64,000 nucleotides of DNA. Source: Klebsiella phage vB_KpnM_Tauntaun_ER47. The DNA is taken from sequence record PP738783.1; one strand, given 5' to 3'. The translations under genes and the position numbers were made by a program. Under the pieces are notes generated by a model. The model saw nothing but the letters and a program-made list of their open reading frames with translations. It made no database searches and had not been told where the DNA came from. Shown one piece after another: positions 24,864 to 63,878 of this stretch; within the stretch, counting starts at the first letter, position 1; each line of letters starts with the position of its first letter.

Positions 24864-24899
24864 AAAGCCCTTGACTCCGGTCGGGGGCTTTGTTATATT
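24864..24899 (+). promoter_or_regulatory. composite terminator hairpin + promoter TTGACT-17-TATATT (repeat copy 1)
   Basis: AAAGCCC-TTGACTCCGGTCG-GGGGCTTT hairpin containing the -35; TATATT at 24894; leader TATCGAAACG. Confidence 0.5.
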
Positions 24900-24936
24900 G
24901 GGCCTATCGAAACGTAAATCACTAAGAGAATATATT

Positions 24937-25506
24937 ATGACTAGTAGTTATCAGAAACACAAAACCCTTATGGCAAACCTGTCCGGTAAACATATCGACG
25001 AAGTAAAATCTCTGCTGACAGTGACCGAAGGTTCCCGATTCGAAACAAATCACATTATCAAACCTTCTGTGAAGAAAGTACTGAAAGTGATTTACCGACA
25101 TCCGGTGTATCAGTGCGTTCATATCATGAACAGCAACGCATTTATTTTCGTATATAACGAATCCGATGATAAGTGTGTTGGTATTTTCCGAAAACCTAAC
25201 TTTGAATGCATGAGCGAAGCGGCTGTTGCAACCCCGATCGTTGAAGAATATCCGGATTATGTTCAACGCAACATGCGTTATGTGCAATCCCGACTTGATT
25301 ATGCATACGATTTCAATTCTGACGCGGTAGAAGCGCTGGCGGATATCCTTTGCAAAAACCAGAAAGATCGTCAAATGACAAAATATCTGACTGATCCAAC
25401 ACCGCCAACAATTCGAATTTCTGTTGAAGTTCCGTTTGAAAATCATTTCATGGCAGTTGAAGCGCTTGCTAAACTTGGTTTAGAAGTGAAAACAGAAGCC
25501 GTTTAA
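24937..25506 (+). CDS. hypothetical protein
   Basis: start MTSSYQKH at 24937 after the promoter/leader; the tracked start lies inside the promoter. Confidence 0.45.
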   Translation: MTSSYQKHKTLMANLSGKHIDEVKSLLTVTEGSRFETNHIIKPSVKKVLKVIYRHPVYQCVHIMNSNAFIFVYNESDDKCVGIFRKPNFECMSEAAVATPIVEEYPDYVQRNMRYVQSRLDYAYDFNSDAVEALADILCKNQKDRQMTKYLTDPTPPTIRISVEVPFENHFMAVEALAKLGLEVKTEAV

Positions 25507-25524
25507 TAGCACTTTTTGTTAAAG

Positions 25525-25561
25525 AAGCCTCTTGCAATGCAGGGGGCTTGTTTGGTATAGT
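25525..25561 (+). promoter_or_regulatory. composite terminator hairpin + promoter TTGCAA-18-TATAGT with CATCGAAACGAAAC leader
   Basis: AAGCC...GGCTT hairpin embedding the -35; leader motif at 25566-25584. Confidence 0.45.
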
Positions 25562-25598
25562 GTGTTCATCGAAACGAAACAGACAAAAGGAACATCCC

Positions 25599-25871
25599 AT
25601 GCAAATCACTAAAGAACTCGAAGGCAAAGTAATCGTTCTGGTAAATGAAGACCGTTTGGCACAACTGGGTAACGGTGGTGAAAAACTGCCAGCGGACGCA
25701 CTCGAAAGCCTTTCTAAAATGCGCGTGATGCGCGTTACTGACGGTTGGGTTACTTGTCTGCCTCTGAACGACGAAGACAAAGCCGTATACGATGCACAAG
25801 CGGATTCATGGGATATCGAAGTACCTCTGGTAAACATCGAAGTTGAAGAGTGCTACGAAATCGAAAAATAA
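25599..25871 (+). CDS. hypothetical acidic protein
   Basis: start MQITKELEG at 25599. Confidence 0.45.
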   Translation: MQITKELEGKVIVLVNEDRLAQLGNGGEKLPADALESLSKMRVMRVTDGWVTCLPLNDEDKAVYDAQADSWDIEVPLVNIEVEECYEIEK

Positions 25872-25884
25872 TGCTTGTGTTCTG

Positions 25885-25906
25885 GGTAATGTAATGGTAC
25901 ATTACC
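25885..25906 (+). promoter_or_regulatory. 9-bp perfect hairpin GGTAATGTA-ATGG-TACATTACC followed by leader TACATCGAAACGAAAGGAG
   Basis: perfect inverted repeat plus the conserved leader upstream of the 25933 ORF. Confidence 0.4.
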
Positions 25907-25932
25907 TACATCGAAACGAAAGGAGAAACATC

Positions 25933-26112
25933 ATGAAAGTTATGCACACTGCAAATCAACTTCAAAACGGCAACTACGCTATCCACGATGCTATCGGTGC
26001 GCTGGTTGGGGTTTATCTTCATGGTATCAAACTCCTTGAAGTAAGTGGGAATACCTTTTATGGTGTTGAAAACATCGAAGCAGCGATGGAAATTATCGGT
26101 GACCTGAAATGA
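25933..26112 (+). CDS. hypothetical small protein
   Basis: start MKVMHTANQ. Confidence 0.4.
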   Translation: MKVMHTANQLQNGNYAIHDAIGALVGVYLHGIKLLEVSGNTFYGVENIEAAMEIIGDLK

Positions 26113-26300
26113 GTAAGAAACTCGAAATATTCGAAACTATCAGCGAAGACCCGAATCTTCGCTGGTGCTGTGCGAAAACTGGGTTTGATGCTGCATGGGG
26201 TGATACTCCAGAACAGGCGCGTAAAAACTGGGAACACCAACAATTGTTTTTTGCCTGTCGGGTTCCTACCAATTATGAGGGGAGTCAATTGTTAGCATGA
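26109..26300 (+). CDS. hypothetical protein
   Basis: 63 aa, ATGA-coupled. Confidence 0.35.
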   Translation: MSKKLEIFETISEDPNLRWCCAKTGFDAAWGDTPEQARKNWEHQQLFFACRVPTNYEGSQLLA

Positions 26301-61788: not shown

Positions 61789-61817
61789 AATATAACAAAA
61801 CCCCTTGCCATTGGCAA
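61789..61817 (-). promoter_or_regulatory. promoter TTGCCA-17-TATATT inside palindromic terminator hairpin; leader ACACACATAGAAACGAAACAGAC
   Basis: minus-strand AACCCCTTGCCAATGGCAAGGGGTTTTGTTATATTACACACATAGAAACGAAAC. Confidence 0.45.
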
Positions 61818-61833
61818 GGGGTTTTTGCAAAAA

Positions 61834-62091
61834 TTATCGTTTGATTGGGGTATTATCTATAACCCGTTGAATTTCCGAACGCATCGTAGAATACTGGCAC
61901 AATTCGGTAAGCGCCCGATCCAGGTGCATCATAGCGTAAGAAAACTCTTTTCCGCATTTGTCGCATCTAGCGTATAAATGTAAATGAATTCGCCCGATCC
62001 CATCTACCTGACTATATTTCTGGAATATGTAAGGATCTGCACCTCGATAGCCAGTAGCTTCGTGCTTACACTCTCGTTTGAACCATGACAT
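61834..62091 (-). CDS. hypothetical Cys-containing protein
   Basis: 85 aa; CKHE...CDKCGKEF. Confidence 0.3.
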   Translation of the reverse strand: MSWFKRECKHEATGYRGADPYIFQKYSQVDGIGRIHLHLYARCDKCGKEFSYAMMHLDRALTELCQYSTMRSEIQRVIDNTPIKR

Positions 62092-62666
62092 TAATAATAT
62101 CCTTGTACGTTGAACCGGTCACACAACAATTTTTTTGTTTGGTTGGTATCGTTTTGGATAGAATGCAACATAGCGGTAATCATGTTTAGGTTATTTTGCA
62201 TCATTTCCGCGCTCATGAGAACTTCCATACGCGCACGTAAGCGTTTATTTTCTTCTTCCAACTCAACCATACGGTCATATGCTTTGATTCGCTCTAAGGG
62301 CATATCAGGACGCTCTTTGAGTACGCGAGCACGTTCAACCTCACAAGCATGATTTGCTTTCCAGTGGTTCGATTCCGCTTCAAATTTATTAAGGCGGCGG
62401 ATCTCTTCAACCAGCTTTTTGATCATGTGTGGATCCATCATGTCGATGAATTTCATCAAGCAATTGGATTTTGTTTGGTTGTCAGCAACAGACCAAGACG
62501 AATTATACGTAACCGTAAACGTGCGGCCCATTTCATCAACAACCCCGATCTTGTTATCATCGGTGATTGTAGCCGCCCATTTCTCCCTCATGGCTGTACA
62601 GGTTCCGCTGGCGACACTATGCAACTTGTTTAATGTTGCGTCATCAAACACAATTTCATCACTCAT
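62091..62666 (-). CDS. hypothetical protein
   Basis: 191 aa; coiled coil near the C-terminus. Confidence 0.35.
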   Translation of the reverse strand: MSDEIVFDDATLNKLHSVASGTCTAMREKWAATITDDNKIGVVDEMGRTFTVTYNSSWSVADNQTKSNCLMKFIDMMDPHMIKKLVEEIRRLNKFEAESNHWKANHACEVERARVLKERPDMPLERIKAYDRMVELEEENKRLRARMEVLMSAEMMQNNLNMITAMLHSIQNDTNQTKKLLCDRFNVQGYY

Positions 62667-62673
62667 GTATGCC

Positions 62674-63072
62674 TCACATAGATTTCAAAATACGCAGAAG
62701 TGCGTTAGTAAAGATATCAGGAACACAACCACCAAACAACTTATGATTCATCAGCGCTAATTTCATGCTGTGATTTTCAGTATATCGCCCGTTATGGATC
62801 CCCCAGGCAACGACATTACCAGGTTCATGAATAACTAAGTTAGTGAGAGTAACGGTCATGCGCTCTTTATCATTGATAGAGAATGAATAGCGATAACCGG
62901 ATCCGATGTCGCCGTAAAGGTTAAGGTCTTTCAATTTCCCTTGCTCATGCAAGCGTTTCATATGAACTGCACATGCATGATTAATAGTCATTTCGTCATC
63001 CCTAGCCCAGTCATCAATACCAGAGGTATAACGAATATTGAAGTAGTTAGTCAGTTCATTTGATACGCTCAT
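62674..63072 (-). CDS. hypothetical protein
   Basis: start moved to MSVSNELTNYF to remove overlap with the upstream ORF. Confidence 0.3.
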   Translation of the reverse strand: MSVSNELTNYFNIRYTSGIDDWARDDEMTINHACAVHMKRLHEQGKLKDLNLYGDIGSGYRYSFSINDKERMTVTLTNLVIHEPGNVVAWGIHNGRYTENHSMKLALMNHKLFGGCVPDIFTNALLRILKSM

Positions 63073-63274
63073 TAGAAACCTCACTTTTATAAAATTCTTT
63101 ACCAGACCCATTACAGCTACTGCATTTGGGGGAACGGTTGTTATCATACCGCCCCGAACCGTTACATGCAACACATTTCCTTAATTTCCAGCCATACACG
63201 AACCTCATGTAATAATCGGTTCGTGCGGCCTTGCGTTCATGGAAATTCATGCTTTGTAAACCTGAACCAACCAC
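63056..63274 (-). CDS. small DnaJ-type zinc-finger (CxxCxGxG x2) protein
   Basis: CVACNGSG ... CSSCNGSG. Confidence 0.35.
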   Translation of the reverse strand: MVGSGLQSMNFHERKAARTDYYMRFVYGWKLRKCVACNGSGRYDNNRSPKCSSCNGSGKEFYKSEVSNERIK

Positions 63275-63447
63275 ATTTCGATGTTAGGCGCGTAAGTAAC
63301 GTTTACCTTATGCATAGTGCGGTATTTGTAAGCGGCTTTGTACGCATCGAGTTCAGTCGGAACACAGAAAGAAAAACCGTTATCATAGCGTTCTGCGTTA
63401 GAAACTTCACAACCAACTACAGCGGCAATGTTTTTATTCATGTTCAT
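63247..63447 (-). CDS. hypothetical small protein
   Basis: start MNMNKNIAAV after leader and RBS; the tracked start runs through the promoter. Confidence 0.35.
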   Translation of the reverse strand: MNMNKNIAAVVGCEVSNAERYDNGFSFCVPTELDAYKAAYKYRTMHKVNVTYAPNIEMWLVQVYKA

Positions 63448-63483
63448 GATGTTTTCCTTTCTCTGTTTCGTTTCGATGTGTGT

Positions 63484-63512
63484 AATATAACAAAGCCCCT
63501 GCACGAATGCAA
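63484..63512 (-). promoter_or_regulatory. promoter TTGCAT-17-TATATT inside terminator hairpin; leader ACACACATCGAAACGAAACAGAG
   Basis: minus-strand AAAAAAGCCCTTGCATTCGTGCAGGGGCTTTGTTATATTACACACATCGAAACGAAAC. Confidence 0.45.
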
Positions 63513-63521
63513 GGGCTTTTT

Positions 63522-63878
63522 TCAGTTTTTCAACATCCAAAGTTGCGGAGGACAATCTTTAGAAGCGATTAGACGATCCAGGCGGGACATAACCCGACGA
63601 TAACCGTCGTATTCAAAATTAATTTTTGGTGGAACGTAGTTGACCTGGATTGTTTTTCTGTTAGCTAAAGAAACATACTCAGGGATCACCGTTCGCAACC
63701 GTATAGCGATCACTGGCTTCTCTTCGCCTTCGTTAAAGAACATTTGAACAGTTATAGGACAAGCAAAGATTTTACCATTTACCCGACGATAAACAATAAC
63801 TTCCTGTGTCCCTTCTGTTTTGGCCTTCACCGCGTAGGTTAGAACATAACACGAATAATGATTTGCTAGACTCATCAT
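63522..63878 (-). CDS. hypothetical protein
   Basis: 118 aa. Confidence 0.35.
   Translation of the reverse strand: MMSLANHYSCYVLTYAVKAKTEGTQEVIVYRRVNGKIFACPITVQMFFNEGEEKPVIAIRLRTVIPEYVSLANRKTIQVNYVPPKINFEYDGYRRVMSRLDRLIASKDCPPQLWMLKN

What the first reader, a model, noticed from the sequence alone, without database searches (positions are those of the whole stretch)
24864..63535. Recurrent terminator-embedded promoter with a conserved ACACACAT(C/A)GAAACGAAAC leader
The same composite architecture recurs at ten or more operon starts on both strands. Copies are at 24864-24936, 25525-25598 and 25880-25932 on the plus strand, and at 35183-35262, 45279-45345, 52194-52260, 57205-57250, 60744-60800, 61401-61440, 61751-61830 and 63448-63535 on the minus strand. 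Each has a GC-rich hairpin that terminates the upstream gene and carries a sigma70-like -35 (TTGACT, TTGCCA, TTGCAT, TTGCAA or TTGCGT) in one arm. A 17-18 bp spacer follows, then TATATT/TATAGT/TATTAT and an ACACACAT start region. In seven copies a near-invariant (C/T)CGAAACGAAAC leader then sits about 20-30 nt upstream of a GGAG-type RBS. This does not match T4 early, MotA middle or TATAAATA late promoters. The leader looks like a binding site for a phage translational or processing regulator (RegA/RegB-like or novel), or a shared 5'-UTR structure.
Basis: seen in the sequence. Interest (0 to 1): 0.75.

Follow-up and report, generated by a model that had tools for sequence, protein, structure and literature searches.

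The report
Phage promoter-terminator cassettes with shared start
These are the already-described "promoter-early stem-loop" cassettes of T4-like phages, here in a Klebsiella phage, and the conserved "leader" is the transcription start plus the first 13 transcribed bases, a start sequence that unrelated coliphages (phi80, T1-like) also use.

Summary
The window comes from a Slopekvirus, a KP15/KP27-like T4-type Klebsiella phage. It is 99.6% identical to vB_KpnM_KP1 over 24 kb.

All 11 sites exist as described, and I found a twelfth at 41124-41212 on the minus strand. They match PeSLs (promoter-early stem-loops; Arbiol 2010, Comeau 2014). A PeSL is a sigma70-like promoter nested in or beside a stable stem-loop, lying between small early ORFs.

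Three copies sit exactly at indel or replacement junctions against the closest relative, which is the PeSL hallmark. KP27's RefSeq record already annotates overlapping promoters and terminators at the copies checked.

- 7 of 11 have a GC hairpin plus T-run carrying the -35.
- 3 have a hairpin over the -10.
- 1 has no hairpin.
- ACACACAT occurs in 5 of 11.

The leader is neither a structured UTR nor a RegA/RegB-type site. It is a CAT start followed by an initial transcribed sequence, ATCGAAACGAAAC. It sits at a fixed distance from the -10 and a variable distance (12 to about 250 nt) from start codons. It is unstructured and poor in U.

The same sequence starts phi80's PL leader and T1-like promoters that carry the unexplained 21-nt ATAGCAC repeat. 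It also occurs in RB49-like and Aeromonas T4-type phages. That cross-family reuse appears to be undescribed and is the only new element here.

The parts
24862..24939 (+). PeSL copy 1. GC hairpin with T-run 24862-24892; TTGACT 24871-24876 in the 5' arm; TATATT 24894-24899; start and partial leader ATCGAAACGTAAA 24906-24918; ATG 24937.
   Evidence: (-20.4 kcal/mol)
25506..25601 (+). PeSL copy 2. T1-type 21-nt box ATAGCACTTTTTGTTAAA 25506-25523; GC hairpin 25522-25549 carrying TTGCAA 25532-25537; TATAGT 25556-25561; ITS ATCGAAACGAAAC 25568-25580; ATG 25599.
   Evidence: (-17.3 kcal/mol)
25875..25935 (+). PeSL copy 3. TTGTGT 25875-25880; AT-rich hairpin 25884-25906 overlapping the -10 TACATT 25898-25903, with no T-run; ITS ATCGAAACGAAAG 25910-25922; ATG 25933.
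   Evidence: (-12.4 kcal/mol)
35180..35251 (-). PeSL copy 4. GC hairpin with UUCG loop 35221-35251; TTGACT 35237-35242; TATATT 35213-35218; partial leader ATCGAAAACAATG 35194-35206; ATG at 35182.
   Evidence: (-16.5 kcal/mol)
41134..41212 (-). No stable hairpin. TTGCAT 41197-41202; TATAGT 41174-41179; leader GTTGAAACGAAAC 41155-41167, followed by the same ...GACAAAAGGAACAT... UTR as copy 2; ATG at 41136.
   Evidence: (-4.9 kcal/mol)
45276..45353 (-). PeSL copy 5. GC hairpin with T-run 45321-45353; TTGCGT 45338-45343; TATTAT 45315-45320; ACACACAT present but no CGAAAC leader; ATG at 45278.
   Evidence: (-19.4 kcal/mol)
52191..52259 (-). PeSL copy 6. GC hairpin (UUCG loop) with T-run 52227-52259; TTGACT 52245-52250; TATTAT 52222-52227; no CGAAAC leader; ATG at 52193.
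   Evidence: (-17.2 kcal/mol)
57202..57270 (-). PeSL copy 7. TTGACG 57265-57270; hairpin 57234-57259 over the -10 (GACTAT 57242-57247), with no T-run; leader GTCGAAACGAAAC 57223-57235; ATG at 57204. A degenerate ATAGCAC box lies further upstream.
   Evidence: (-13.7 kcal/mol)
60741..60802 (-). PeSL copy 8. TTGCGT 60797-60802; 12-bp hairpin 60768-60795 whose 3' arm is the ACACAC 'start region'; -10 TACCTT 60774-60779; ITS ATAGAAACGAAAC 60755-60767; ATG at 60743. Homology to KP1 breaks at 60744.
   Evidence: (-19.7 kcal/mol)
61398..61471 (-). Copy 9. No GC hairpin. T1-type box TTAGCACAAATTGCTAAA 61454-61471; TATTGT 61428-61433, 22 nt after the box's TTGCTA; ITS ATCGAAACGAAGG 61409-61421; ATG at 61400.
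61748..61826 (-). PeSL copy 10. Perfect GC hairpin with T-run 61796-61826; TTGCCA 61812-61817; TATATT 61789-61794; ITS ATAGAAACGAAAC 61770-61782; ATG at 61750. Recombination junction against KP1 (61767-61801): KP1 carries an extra PeSL plus gene here.
   Evidence: (-21.8 kcal/mol)
63445..63522 (-). PeSL copy 11. GC hairpin with T-run 63491-63522; TTGCAT 63507-63512; TATATT 63484-63489; ITS ATCGAAACGAAAC 63465-63477; ATG at 63447. Junction of a 4.4-kb indel against KP1 (63484-63521). Homology to KP27 and the phiKp phages ends at about 63521.
   Evidence: (-19.3 kcal/mol)

Best explanation
The sites are PeSL-type regulatory cassettes of a T4-like Slopekvirus. Each is a compact intergenic unit with five parts.

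1. Stop codon(s) of the upstream ORF in an A-rich tract.
2. A stable stem-loop. In the main subclass it is GC-rich, followed by a T-run and preceded by an A-run. It therefore acts as an intrinsic, probably bidirectional, terminator that ends upstream transcripts.
3. A host sigma70 promoter whose -35 hexamer lies in the 5' arm or loop and whose -10 lies in the terminator's T-rich tail.
4. A CAT start, with the A exactly 7 nt after the -10.
5. A short, A-rich, U-poor, unstructured 5'-UTR ending in an SD and ATG.

Each small early ORF or ORF group is thereby insulated from read-through and restarted from its own strong promoter.

The 'leader' ATCGAAACGAAAC is the first 13 transcribed bases. I infer that it is kept because it suits the host machinery in three ways: a defined purine start; a T-poor, purine-rich initial transcribed sequence that favours promoter escape; and an open RBS.

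The repeated cassettes also provide homology for recombination, which inserts, deletes and swaps ORF modules between related phages.

Shown in silico: the anatomy, the -10-locked position, the lack of structure, the cross-family occurrence, and the junctions at cassettes.

Inferred: promoter and terminator activity (by analogy with tested RB49/phi1 PeSLs), the exact transcription start, and the promoter-escape and translation benefit.
For: Identity of the phage: the window is 99.6% identical to Klebsiella phage vB_KpnM_KP1 (Slopekvirus) and 97-98% identical to KP15/KP27.

Prior annotation: KP27 RefSeq already annotates promoters at three orthologous sites checked (window 60744, 61401, 61751), with an overlapping ARNold terminator only at the 61751 orthologue. 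A similar promoter/terminator pair also sits beside the 63448 junction.

PeSL definition and experiments: sigma70 promoter plus stem-loop, five positional subclasses, stop codon to SD/ATG. The stem-loop terminates about as well as rrnB T1. The promoter gave about 13,000 Miller units. Crossovers were mapped between the -10 and the ATG (PMC2839356; PMC4122927).

Hairpins: 10 of 12 copies fold at -12.4 to -21.8 kcal/mol. Copies 61751 and 63448 are the two top terminator-like hits in a 20-kb scan. Four of 6 consensus pairs show compensatory changes across 14 copies, including the fourth base of the -35 hexamer covarying with the 3' arm.

Modular shuffling: window-versus-KP1 breakpoints fall inside the cassettes at 60744, 61767-61801 and 63484-63521. 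The crossovers lie in the hairpin/-10 region.

Leader as transcription start plus ITS:
- The spacing -10 hexamer, 5 nt, CAT is fixed in the window, in KP1, in Rtp and in 59 of 95 unique IMG/VR contexts. The control 14-mer shows a flat profile.
- In phi80 the annotated O-L region ends exactly at the C of CATCGAAACGAAAC, with nutL and N downstream.
- T7 A1 and A3, with annotated starts, read CC-A-TCGAGAGG and CAC-A-TGAAACGACAG, at the same 7-nt distance from the -10.

Leader properties: unstructured, with all nine z-scores positive. Composition is U 13% and A 50%, against U 28% and A 36% upstream of other genes.

ITS literature: T-rich and TG/TA steps slow promoter escape, GA/GG steps favour it, purine content correlates with productive yield, and the ITS can change promoter strength more than 10-fold (PMC5961368).
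Against: - No transcript 5' or 3' ends are available for any Slopekvirus, so promoter activity, start site, termination efficiency and timing are all inferred.
- A generic 'good ITS' argument does not explain why this exact 13-mer, rather than any purine-rich sequence, is kept in three unrelated phage families. A specific binding partner remains possible.
- The ITS contains two CG steps (+3/+4 and +8/+9), which were mildly unfavourable for escape in two of three promoter contexts.
- Some conservation among paralogous copies could be concerted evolution through the recombination documented here, not selection on expression.
- Four of 12 PeSL copies lack the full motif yet look equally functional.
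Confidence: 0.7

Rival explanations
1. The CGAAACGAAAC leader is an RNA operator for a phage-encoded post-transcriptional regulator. It would be a RegA-like translational repressor or a RegB-like endonuclease, co-regulating a set of early genes.
For: - A regA homologue is annotated in the closest relative (KP1 25677-26039).
- The motif lies in 5'-UTRs of early-type ORFs, 12-21 nt before the AUG in this phage.
- Several RBSs are GGAG-type, which is the RegB target in T4.
Against: - The motif is anchored to the -10 hexamer, not to the AUG or SD. Its distance to the start codon ranges from 12 to 249 nt across contexts.
- It occurs at phi80 PL, about 400 nt upstream of N, and in T1-like phages. 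Only polynucleotide kinase is shared between Rtp and this phage at BLAST level.
- Two orthologues of genes I recall as classical T4 RegA targets (clamp-loader gene 44 at KP1 27607, rpbA at 28627) lack the motif upstream.
- No RegB Pfam hit appeared among the candidate ORFs tested.
- From my own knowledge of T4, RegA sites overlap the AUG and are U/A-rich, unlike this sequence.
Confidence: 0.06
2. The leader is a shared structured 5'-UTR element, such as a riboregulator or a protective 5' stem-loop.
For: High sequence conservation of a 13-30 nt stretch in several UTRs. In phi80-type leaders the 5' AUCGA can pair with a downstream UCGA(U), which I saw by eye.
Against: - All nine Slopekvirus leaders fold at only -0.6 to -2.3 kcal/mol.
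- All nine z-scores are positive (0.08 to 1.76), so the leaders are less structured than dinucleotide shuffles.
- There is no Rfam match in the window other than a tRNA, and none in six other loci that carry the motif.
Confidence: 0.02
3. The leader has no expression function of its own. It is conserved because it is part of the homology block that drives PeSL-to-PeSL recombination (concerted evolution or gene conversion), or because it is a site for a recombinase or homing enzyme.
For: Three cassettes in the window are recombination junctions against KP1, and paralogous copies share 35-40 bp identical blocks. Arbiol et al. mapped crossovers between the -10 and the ATG.
Against: - The crossovers seen here lie in the hairpin/-10 block, not in the leader.
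- Within cassettes, the hairpin, the last three bases of the -35 hexamer and the spacer vary freely, while +1..+13 stays nearly invariant.
- The same 13-mer is kept beside completely different flanks in phi80-type prophages, which have variable operators upstream and at least three different leaders downstream. It is also kept in T1-like phages. Intragenomic homogenisation cannot explain this.
Confidence: 0.12
4. The 13-mer, alone or with the T1-type 21-nt ATAGCAC box, is a DNA or RNA site for a specific host factor or an undetected phage factor. It would act as an operator, enhancer or shut-off site at +1..+13, and several phage families exploit it.
For: - Exact 14-mer identity across Straboviridae, Drexlerviridae and phi80-like prophages is more than a loose compositional preference.
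- In T1-like phages and in four or five Slopekvirus copies it pairs with the palindromic box TAGCA-N5-TGCTA. That box sits 5 bp too far upstream to be a -35, and its function is an open question (PMC11447400).
Against: - No candidate factor has been identified.
- No regulator is shared between Rtp and KP1 at BLAST level.
- The tandem GAAAC repeat has 5-nt spacing and no dyad, which is atypical for dimeric DNA binders.
- Outside phages and prophages, the motif's frequency in bacterial genomes is at chance level.
Confidence: 0.1

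Closest known systems
PeSLs (promoter-early stem-loops) of T4-like phages: RB49/phi1, T4/PST, KVP40/nt-1 (Arbiol et al. 2010, PMC2839356; Comeau et al. 2014, PMC4122927)
   Same: - A sigma70-like promoter nested in or next to a stable stem-loop that terminates upstream transcription.
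[quoted passage not shown]
- Several positional subclasses of the stem-loop.
- Clustered among small ORFs of unknown function.
- Located at indel or replacement junctions between close relatives, with crossovers between the hairpin/-10 and the ATG.
- An RB49-like Krischvirus (KFS-EC) even carries the same ...ACACCCATCGAAACGAAAC... start.
   Different: - The host phage is a Slopekvirus (RB43-like branch), which those papers did not analyse.
- The dominant stem is A5-GCCC...GGGC-T-run, with the -35 inside the stem, often TTGACT with a UUCG loop.
- The papers do not mention a conserved start or ITS motif.
- Activity and mini-circle formation were not tested here.
21-nt intergenic repeat aaATAGCACnnnTTGnTAAAA of T1-like phages (TLS, T1, Rtp; PMC11447400)
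   Same: - The identical box occurs in the window at 25506-25523 (+) and 61454-61471 (-), and twice more in KP1.
[quoted passage not shown].
- Rtp also places small hairpins between the box and the -10 or over the -10, so its units resemble PeSLs.
   Different: - In T1-like phages the box is the dominant promoter-associated element: 18 intergenic copies in TLS, and about two dozen box matches (up to 2 mismatches, a few inside genes) in Rtp. A canonical -35 is usually missing there.
- In this phage it is a minority variant, sometimes sitting upstream of a complete hairpin/-35 PeSL.
- Its function is unknown in either family.
Strong early sigma70 promoters of coliphages with characterised starts and initial transcribed sequences: T7 A1 and A3, T5 N25, phi80/lambda PL
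   Same: - A start at the A of a CAT, 7 nt after the -10.
- The transcript begins AUCGA... (T7 A1) or AU-GAAACGA-CAG (T7 A3).
- phi80 PL carries the identical CATCGAAACGAAAC at the end of its O-L region.
- The ITS is known to modulate promoter strength and escape.
   Different: Those promoters are not embedded in terminators and do not recur as dispersed cassettes. No published consensus for this 13-mer was found: literal string searches of 8 million papers gave nothing relevant.
T4 RegA operators and RegB cleavage sites
   Same: They lie in the 5'-UTRs of early genes. Some RBSs here are GGAG.
   Different: The motif is positioned relative to the promoter, not the AUG or SD. It is also present in phages without RegA or RegB. 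See the membership test.

Membership tests
PeSL (promoter-early stem-loop cassette) | Sigma70-like -35/-10 pair with about 17-bp spacing in an intergenic region, oriented toward the downstream ORF | tested here: met
   TTGACT, TTGCAT, TTGCCA, TTGCGT or TTGCAA, then 17-18 bp, then TATATT, TATAGT or TATTAT, at 10 of 12 copies. Copy 61401 has a 22-bp distance to TTGCTA, so it is a T1-type box and not a -35.
PeSL (promoter-early stem-loop cassette) | Stable stem-loop overlapping or adjacent to the promoter (five positional subclasses) | tested here: met
   - 10 of 12 copies fold at -12.4 to -21.8 kcal/mol.
- Compensatory changes occur in 4 of 6 consensus pairs.
- Seven hairpins overlap the -35 and have a T-run; three overlap the -10.
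- Further subclasses, with the hairpin downstream of the -10, are seen in KP1 upstream of the genes at 36449 and 38218, which correspond to window genes starting near 5003 and 6727.
PeSL (promoter-early stem-loop cassette) | The cassette spans from the upstream stop codon in an A/T-rich tract to the SD and start codon of the next ORF | tested here: met
   Visible in every copy. Start codons are mapped.
PeSL (promoter-early stem-loop cassette) | Concentrated in hyperplastic regions among small non-core ORFs | tested here: met
   Copies lie at 24.8-26 kb and 35-63.5 kb of the window, among ORFs annotated as hypothetical in KP1. No leader-bearing copy (KP1 coordinates) lies in the KP1 virion-gene blocks annotated.
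PeSL (promoter-early stem-loop cassette) | Sits at insertion, deletion or replacement junctions between closely related phages, with the crossover inside the cassette | tested here: met
   Junctions against KP1 lie at window 60744, 61767-61801 (KP1 has an extra PeSL plus ORF at 93140-93472) and 63484-63521 (a 4.4-kb block, KP1 95239-99611, is absent). Homology to KP27 and the phiKp phages also ends at about 63521.
PeSL (promoter-early stem-loop cassette) | Demonstrated strong promoter and terminator activity; formation of PeSL mini-circles | not testable with these tools
   Shown only for RB49/phi1. This needs reporter fusions, in vitro transcription and inverse PCR on infected cells.
T4 (T-even) early promoter | -35 GTTTAC-type hexamer with a T-even extended -10 and UP-like A-tract | tested here: not met
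   The -35 hexamers are TTGACT, TTGCAT and similar, which are E. coli-like. This agrees with the sigma70-like early consensus reported for RB43 and RB49.
T4 MotA-dependent middle promoter | Mot box (a/t)(a/t)(a/t)TGCTT(t/c)A centred at -30, 11-13 bp from the -10, and a motA (and asiA) gene in the genome | tested here: not met
   - Spacing is 17-18 bp to a TTGnnn hexamer.
- RB43 lacks motA (PMC1524935).
- Four ORFs in the syntenic t-proximal region gave no MotA or AsiA Pfam hit. A whole-proteome scan was not done.
- KP27's 'putative middle promoter' labels derive from MEME only.
RegA operator / RegB site | RNA site overlapping or adjacent to the AUG/SD (RegB: GGAG in the SD), with the cognate gene present | tested here: not met
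   The motif is locked to the -10, and its distance to the AUG is variable. It is present in phi80 and in T1-like phages. regA is annotated in KP1, but no RegB hit appeared among six candidates. Binding itself cannot be tested here.
T1-like 21-nt intergenic repeat (aaATAGCACnnnTTGnTAAAA) | The 21-nt consensus, in the direction of transcription, roughly 76 nt upstream of a start codon | tested here: met
   - 0-1 mismatch copies lie at window 25506 (+) and 61471 (-), and at KP1 10086, 10441, 56483 and 92792.
- From the coordinates, the two window boxes begin 93 and 71 nt upstream of their ATGs.
- This applies to only 2 of the 12 cassettes in the window, plus one degenerate copy.
Known RNA family (Rfam) | Covariance-model match at gathering threshold | tested here: not met
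   Only a tRNA at 17956-18029 in the window. No match in six other motif-bearing loci.

The most novel reading that the evidence does not exclude
CAT-CGAAACGAAAC is a discrete, portable 'start module' recognised by something in the enterobacterial or Vibrio host. The partner could be RNA polymerase itself during initial transcription, or a specific DNA- or RNA-binding factor. At least three unrelated phage lineages have exchanged it or converged on it: T4-like Straboviridae of several genera, T1-like Drexlerviridae, and phi80-like temperate phages at PL. In T1-like phages and in some Slopekvirus cassettes it works together with the unexplained 21-nt ATAGCAC box as a non-canonical, -35-less promoter class. 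If true, this would address the open question of what the T1-type repeat does. It would also define a new promoter-proximal element for strong phage early transcription.
Probability: 0.25. Interest if true: 0.6.

Novelty: new member of a known kind. Interest (0 to 1): 0.35.

Why it matters
For annotation:
- These sites should be labelled as early sigma70 PeSL cassettes, not 'middle promoters'.
- They mark transcription-unit boundaries and true start codons. For example, the ATG at 35182 is the likely start, not the upstream TTG used in KP1.
- They flag where gene modules are gained and lost in therapeutic Klebsiella phages.

For biology:
- The modest new point is that the first 13 transcribed bases are conserved more strongly than the promoter hexamers. 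The same 13-mer is reused at phi80 PL and in T1-like promoters that carry the unexplained 21-nt repeat.
- This gives a concrete, testable handle on how the initial transcribed sequence contributes to very strong phage early promoters, and on the function of the T1-type repeat.
- It also offers compact, insulated promoter-terminator-UTR parts for synthetic biology.

Tried and rejected
- **Rfam.** Scans of the window and of six motif-bearing loci found nothing except a tRNA.
- **Folding.** Nine leaders show no structure.
- **Pfam.** Ten candidate ORFs were scanned for AsiA, MotA and RegB, and none hit. The hits were a Macro domain, an SLT domain and thymidine kinase. This was not a whole-proteome scan.
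- **Shared regulator.** All Rtp ORFs of at least 40 aa were compared with the KP1 genome by tblastn. Only polynucleotide kinase matched.
- **Literature string searches.** Searches for the 13-mer and for the ATAGCAC box returned nothing relevant. The TLS paper was found by keyword instead.
- **Published start sites.** Desplats 2002, which mapped RB49 5' ends, is not held. No transcription-start dataset for T1-like phages was found.
- **Raw counts in large collections are not informative.** In bacterial genomes the -10-anchored pattern gave 119 matches, against about 69 expected from my own uniform-composition estimate. Of these, 64 look like chance or coding matches, for example a conserved YCPSIETK-coding stretch. 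Only the context analysis was decisive.
- **Sigma54, sigma32, IHF, Fis, CRP or OmpR sites.** I considered each as a reading of the box or leader and dropped it by inspection, because spacing or key bases do not fit. None was formally tested.
- **General promoter scan.** The scan of 44-64 kb is not enriched over shuffles (55 found, 48.8 expected). Promoter calls here rest on context and recurrence, not on that scan.

Full report
**What the window is.**
The 64-kb window (41.4% G+C) comes from a T4-type Klebsiella myovirus of the genus Slopekvirus.
- Positions 24000-48000 are 99.6% identical to vB_KpnM_KP1 (PP782000) and about 98.4% identical to KP15.
- Positions 60000-63522 are about 97% identical to KP27 and the phiKp phages.
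- I assembled the complete KP1 genome with its CDS table from five fetches and used it as a whole-genome reference.

**Checking the observation.**
All eleven listed sites have the sequences described.

The motifs are enriched over chance:
- CGAAACGAAAC with up to 1 mismatch occurs 8 times, against 1.9 expected.
- ACACACAT occurs 8 times, against 2.85 expected.

Placement is more telling than counts:
- Seven of the eight leader matches lie 12-21 nt upstream of a start codon on the coding strand.
- In KP1, all twelve leader copies lie 18-30 nt upstream of annotated starts, each behind a -10-like hexamer.

The architecture is less uniform than claimed:
- Seven copies have an A-run, a GC hairpin and a T-run with the -35 inside the stem (-16.5 to -21.8 kcal/mol).
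- Three copies have a hairpin over the -10 and no T-run.
- Copy 61401 and the newly found copy have no real hairpin.
- ACACACAT is present in five of the eleven copies. In copy 60744 it is simply the 3' arm of a 12-bp hairpin.

**What the elements are.**
The composite matches the published PeSL, or promoter-early stem-loop. PeSLs were described in the T4-like phages RB49/phi1 and later in T4/PST and KVP40/nt-1.

A PeSL is a sigma70-like promoter nested in or beside a stable stem-loop. [quoted passage not shown] Five subclasses are distinguished by where the stem-loop sits.

In RB49/phi1 the stem-loop terminated about as well as rrnB T1. The promoters were strong enough to be toxic in plasmids, at about 13,000 Miller units.

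Every PeSL-defining feature I could test in silico is met:
- Promoter hexamers and spacing.
- Stable hairpins with compensatory changes, including covariation between the fourth base of the -35 hexamer and the 3' arm.
- The two best terminator-like hits in a 20-kb scan are copies 61751 and 63448.
- The copies lie among ORFs annotated as hypothetical.

The PeSL hallmark is also present. Aligning the window to KP1 puts three breakpoints inside cassettes:
- At 61767-61801, KP1 has an extra PeSL plus ORF between two cassettes.
- At 63484-63521, the window lacks a 4.4-kb block (about 13 ORFs) that KP1 carries between two cassettes.
- At 60744, the upstream cassette and its genes are replaced.

The crossovers fall in the shared hairpin/-10 block. 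The authors of the KP15/KP27 paper located promoters with MEME/MAST and terminators with ARNold. Their KP27 record annotates promoters at the three orthologous sites I inspected, with an overlapping terminator at one of them, and a further promoter/terminator pair beside the 63448 junction. The composite is therefore not new, although I found no paper that applies the PeSL name to this genus.

**Promoter class.**
That is expected. The related RB43 and RB49 genomes are reported to have sigma70-like early promoters, and RB43 lacks motA and alt.

The 'putative middle promoter' labels in KP27 derive from MEME only. The spacing to TTGnnn is 17-18 bp, not a Mot box at -30.

**What the leader is.**
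Four results argue against a RegA/RegB-type site or a structured UTR.

1. No structure. All nine leaders fold at only -0.6 to -2.3 kcal/mol, and every z-score is positive. Rfam finds nothing.

2. Anchored to the promoter, not the RBS.
- In the window, KP1 and Rtp, the -10 hexamer is followed by 5 nt (in a few copies 6) and then CAT or its variant.
- Exact matches to CATCGAAACGAAAC in IMG/VR have TANNNT 4-7 nt upstream in 85 of 119 cases. A reversed control 14-mer has this in 10 of 119.
- In 59 of 95 unique contexts the hexamer is exactly 5 nt before the C. The control profile is flat. The distance to the next SD plus start codon ranges from 12 to 249 nt.
- This places the A of CAT 7 nt after the -10, the same distance as at the annotated starts of T7 A1 and A3.
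- Those two transcripts begin ATCGAGAGG and ATGAAACGACAG, which resembles the leader here.

3. Not specific to this phage.
- It is the sequence at which phi80's annotated O-L region ends. nutL and gene N follow.
- About 70 phi80/HK225/HK639-like prophage contigs keep it between highly variable operator/promoter sequences and at least three different downstream leaders.
- It follows five of the ATAGCAC-box promoters of the T1-like phage Rtp.
- It occurs in a Krischvirus (RB49 group) and in an Aeromonas Angelvirus.
- In one-genome-per-species bacterial data, the -10-anchored pattern is near chance overall. The exceptions are 30 phi80-type, 6 T1-type and 3 Slopekvirus-type contexts, mostly from Enterobacterales.

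4. No shared regulator. Rtp and KP1 share no BLAST-detectable protein other than polynucleotide kinase. A common phage-encoded regulator is therefore unlikely.

The leader is best read as the transcription start plus the initial transcribed sequence (ITS), followed by a short A-rich, U-poor UTR. Composition is U 13% and A 50%, against U 28% and A 36% upstream of other genes.

**How it most likely works.**

Shown:
- The anatomy.
- The fixed distance from the -10.
- The lack of structure.
- The junctions at cassettes.

Inferred:
- Upstream transcripts end at the GC hairpin and T-run.
- Host Esigma70 binds the -35 inside the hairpin DNA and the -10 in the T-rich tail.
- Transcription then starts at the A of CAT.
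- The first 13 bases contain only one T and no TG or TA step. They have a GA step at +4/+5 and are 9/13 purine.
- These features were reported to favour promoter escape and productive yield. T-rich and TG-containing ITSs slow escape, and the ITS can change promoter strength more than 10-fold.
- The open, U-poor UTR leaves the SD accessible.

The result is a self-contained, insulated expression unit for each early ORF group. The repeated units also serve as recombination substrates.

Left unexplained: why this exact 13-mer is preserved across families, when any purine-rich start might do. A specific binding partner is therefore not excluded. It could act together with the T1-type 21-nt box, whose function the TLS authors list as an open question. 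I rate that reading at roughly 0.25 in its broad form.

**Verdict.**
- The element is a new member of a known kind: PeSLs in a Slopekvirus.
- The regulator and structure interpretation of the leader is not supported.
- The cross-family reuse of the start and ITS motif, and the presence of the T1-type box in a T4-like phage, appear to be undescribed. They are of moderate interest.

Noticed in passing
window 25506-25523 (+) and 61454-61471 (-); KP1 10086, 10441, 56483, 92792: A T4-like phage carries exact copies of the 21-nt intergenic repeat aaATAGCACnnnTTGnTAAAA. That repeat is known from T1-like phages (TLS, T1, Rtp), where its function is an acknowledged open question. Here, each copy with 0-1 mismatch is followed by a -10 hexamer and the CATCGAAAC start. 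The box's TTGCTA lies 22 bp from the -10, too far to act as a -35.
   Followed up: partly
L126/L127 (phi80 X13065, M11919); about 70 IMG/VR loci such as L008, L013, L018, L020: The phi80-type PL leader begins with the identical CATCGAAACGAAAC. Across prophages, the operators and promoter hexamers upstream are hypervariable and the nutL-containing leader downstream comes in at least three versions, yet the 14-mer is invariant.
   Followed up: partly
L258, L261, L283, L291, L322, L343 (Vibrio genomes): A Vibrio element family has TATACT-ctctc-CATCGAAACGAAAC followed by a small hairpin (accgaagcta..cttcgg) and a conserved ...aattaaaaacgaatttgg. Its nature (prophage early leader or small RNA) is unknown.
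   Followed up: no
window 4950-4975 (+), upstream of the ORF starting at 5003: A leader-like sequence, GTAACGAAAC, forms the loop of a GC hairpin (AGCCCA-TGTAACGAAAC-GTGGGCT plus T-run). The hairpin lies downstream of a TTGACC-17-TAAAGT promoter. This is a different PeSL subclass, with the hairpin after the -10.
   Followed up: no
window 21726-22244 (+): This 172-aa ORF lies in a stretch that does not align with KP1 (gap between the HSPs, window 21730-22242). By eye its sequence resembles an AP2/HNH-type homing endonuclease (...GYRGVCW...LGYFDTPEEASKAYHQKAKE...). It is probably a mobile insertion.
   Followed up: no
window 4173-4737 (+): An insertion relative to KP1 that contains a 184-aa ORF (4181-4735). 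It is not flanked by an obvious PeSL.
   Followed up: no
window 34898-35257 (-) / KP1 65874-66230: The KP1 annotation starts this gene at a codon inside the PeSL, upstream of the hairpin. The cassette's SD (GAGGAATACATT) points to the ATG at window 35182 as the real start, which shortens the protein to 94 aa.
   Followed up: partly
window 49950-50456 (-): An early-region ORF with a Macro domain (E = 6e-7) and a weak ThsA-Macro match. It may be an ADP-ribose-directed counter-defence or host-takeover function.
   Followed up: no
L001 (KP27 NC_020080) 2299-2327, 2953-2986, 5009-5037: KP27 RefSeq labels several of these sigma70-spaced promoters 'putative middle promoter; discovered using MEME'. 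The related phage RB43 lacks MotA, so the label is probably a misnomer.
   Followed up: partly
L252 (Rtp) e.g. 3077, 3459, 29628, 37795 (+): In Rtp, many box-type promoters have a small hairpin (GGGGTA...TACCCC) over the -10, or a GC hairpin between the box and the -10. T1-like phages therefore also have PeSL-like promoter/stem-loop units. Their leaders are uniformly A/C-rich and end in ACGAGAGG-type RBSs.
   Followed up: no
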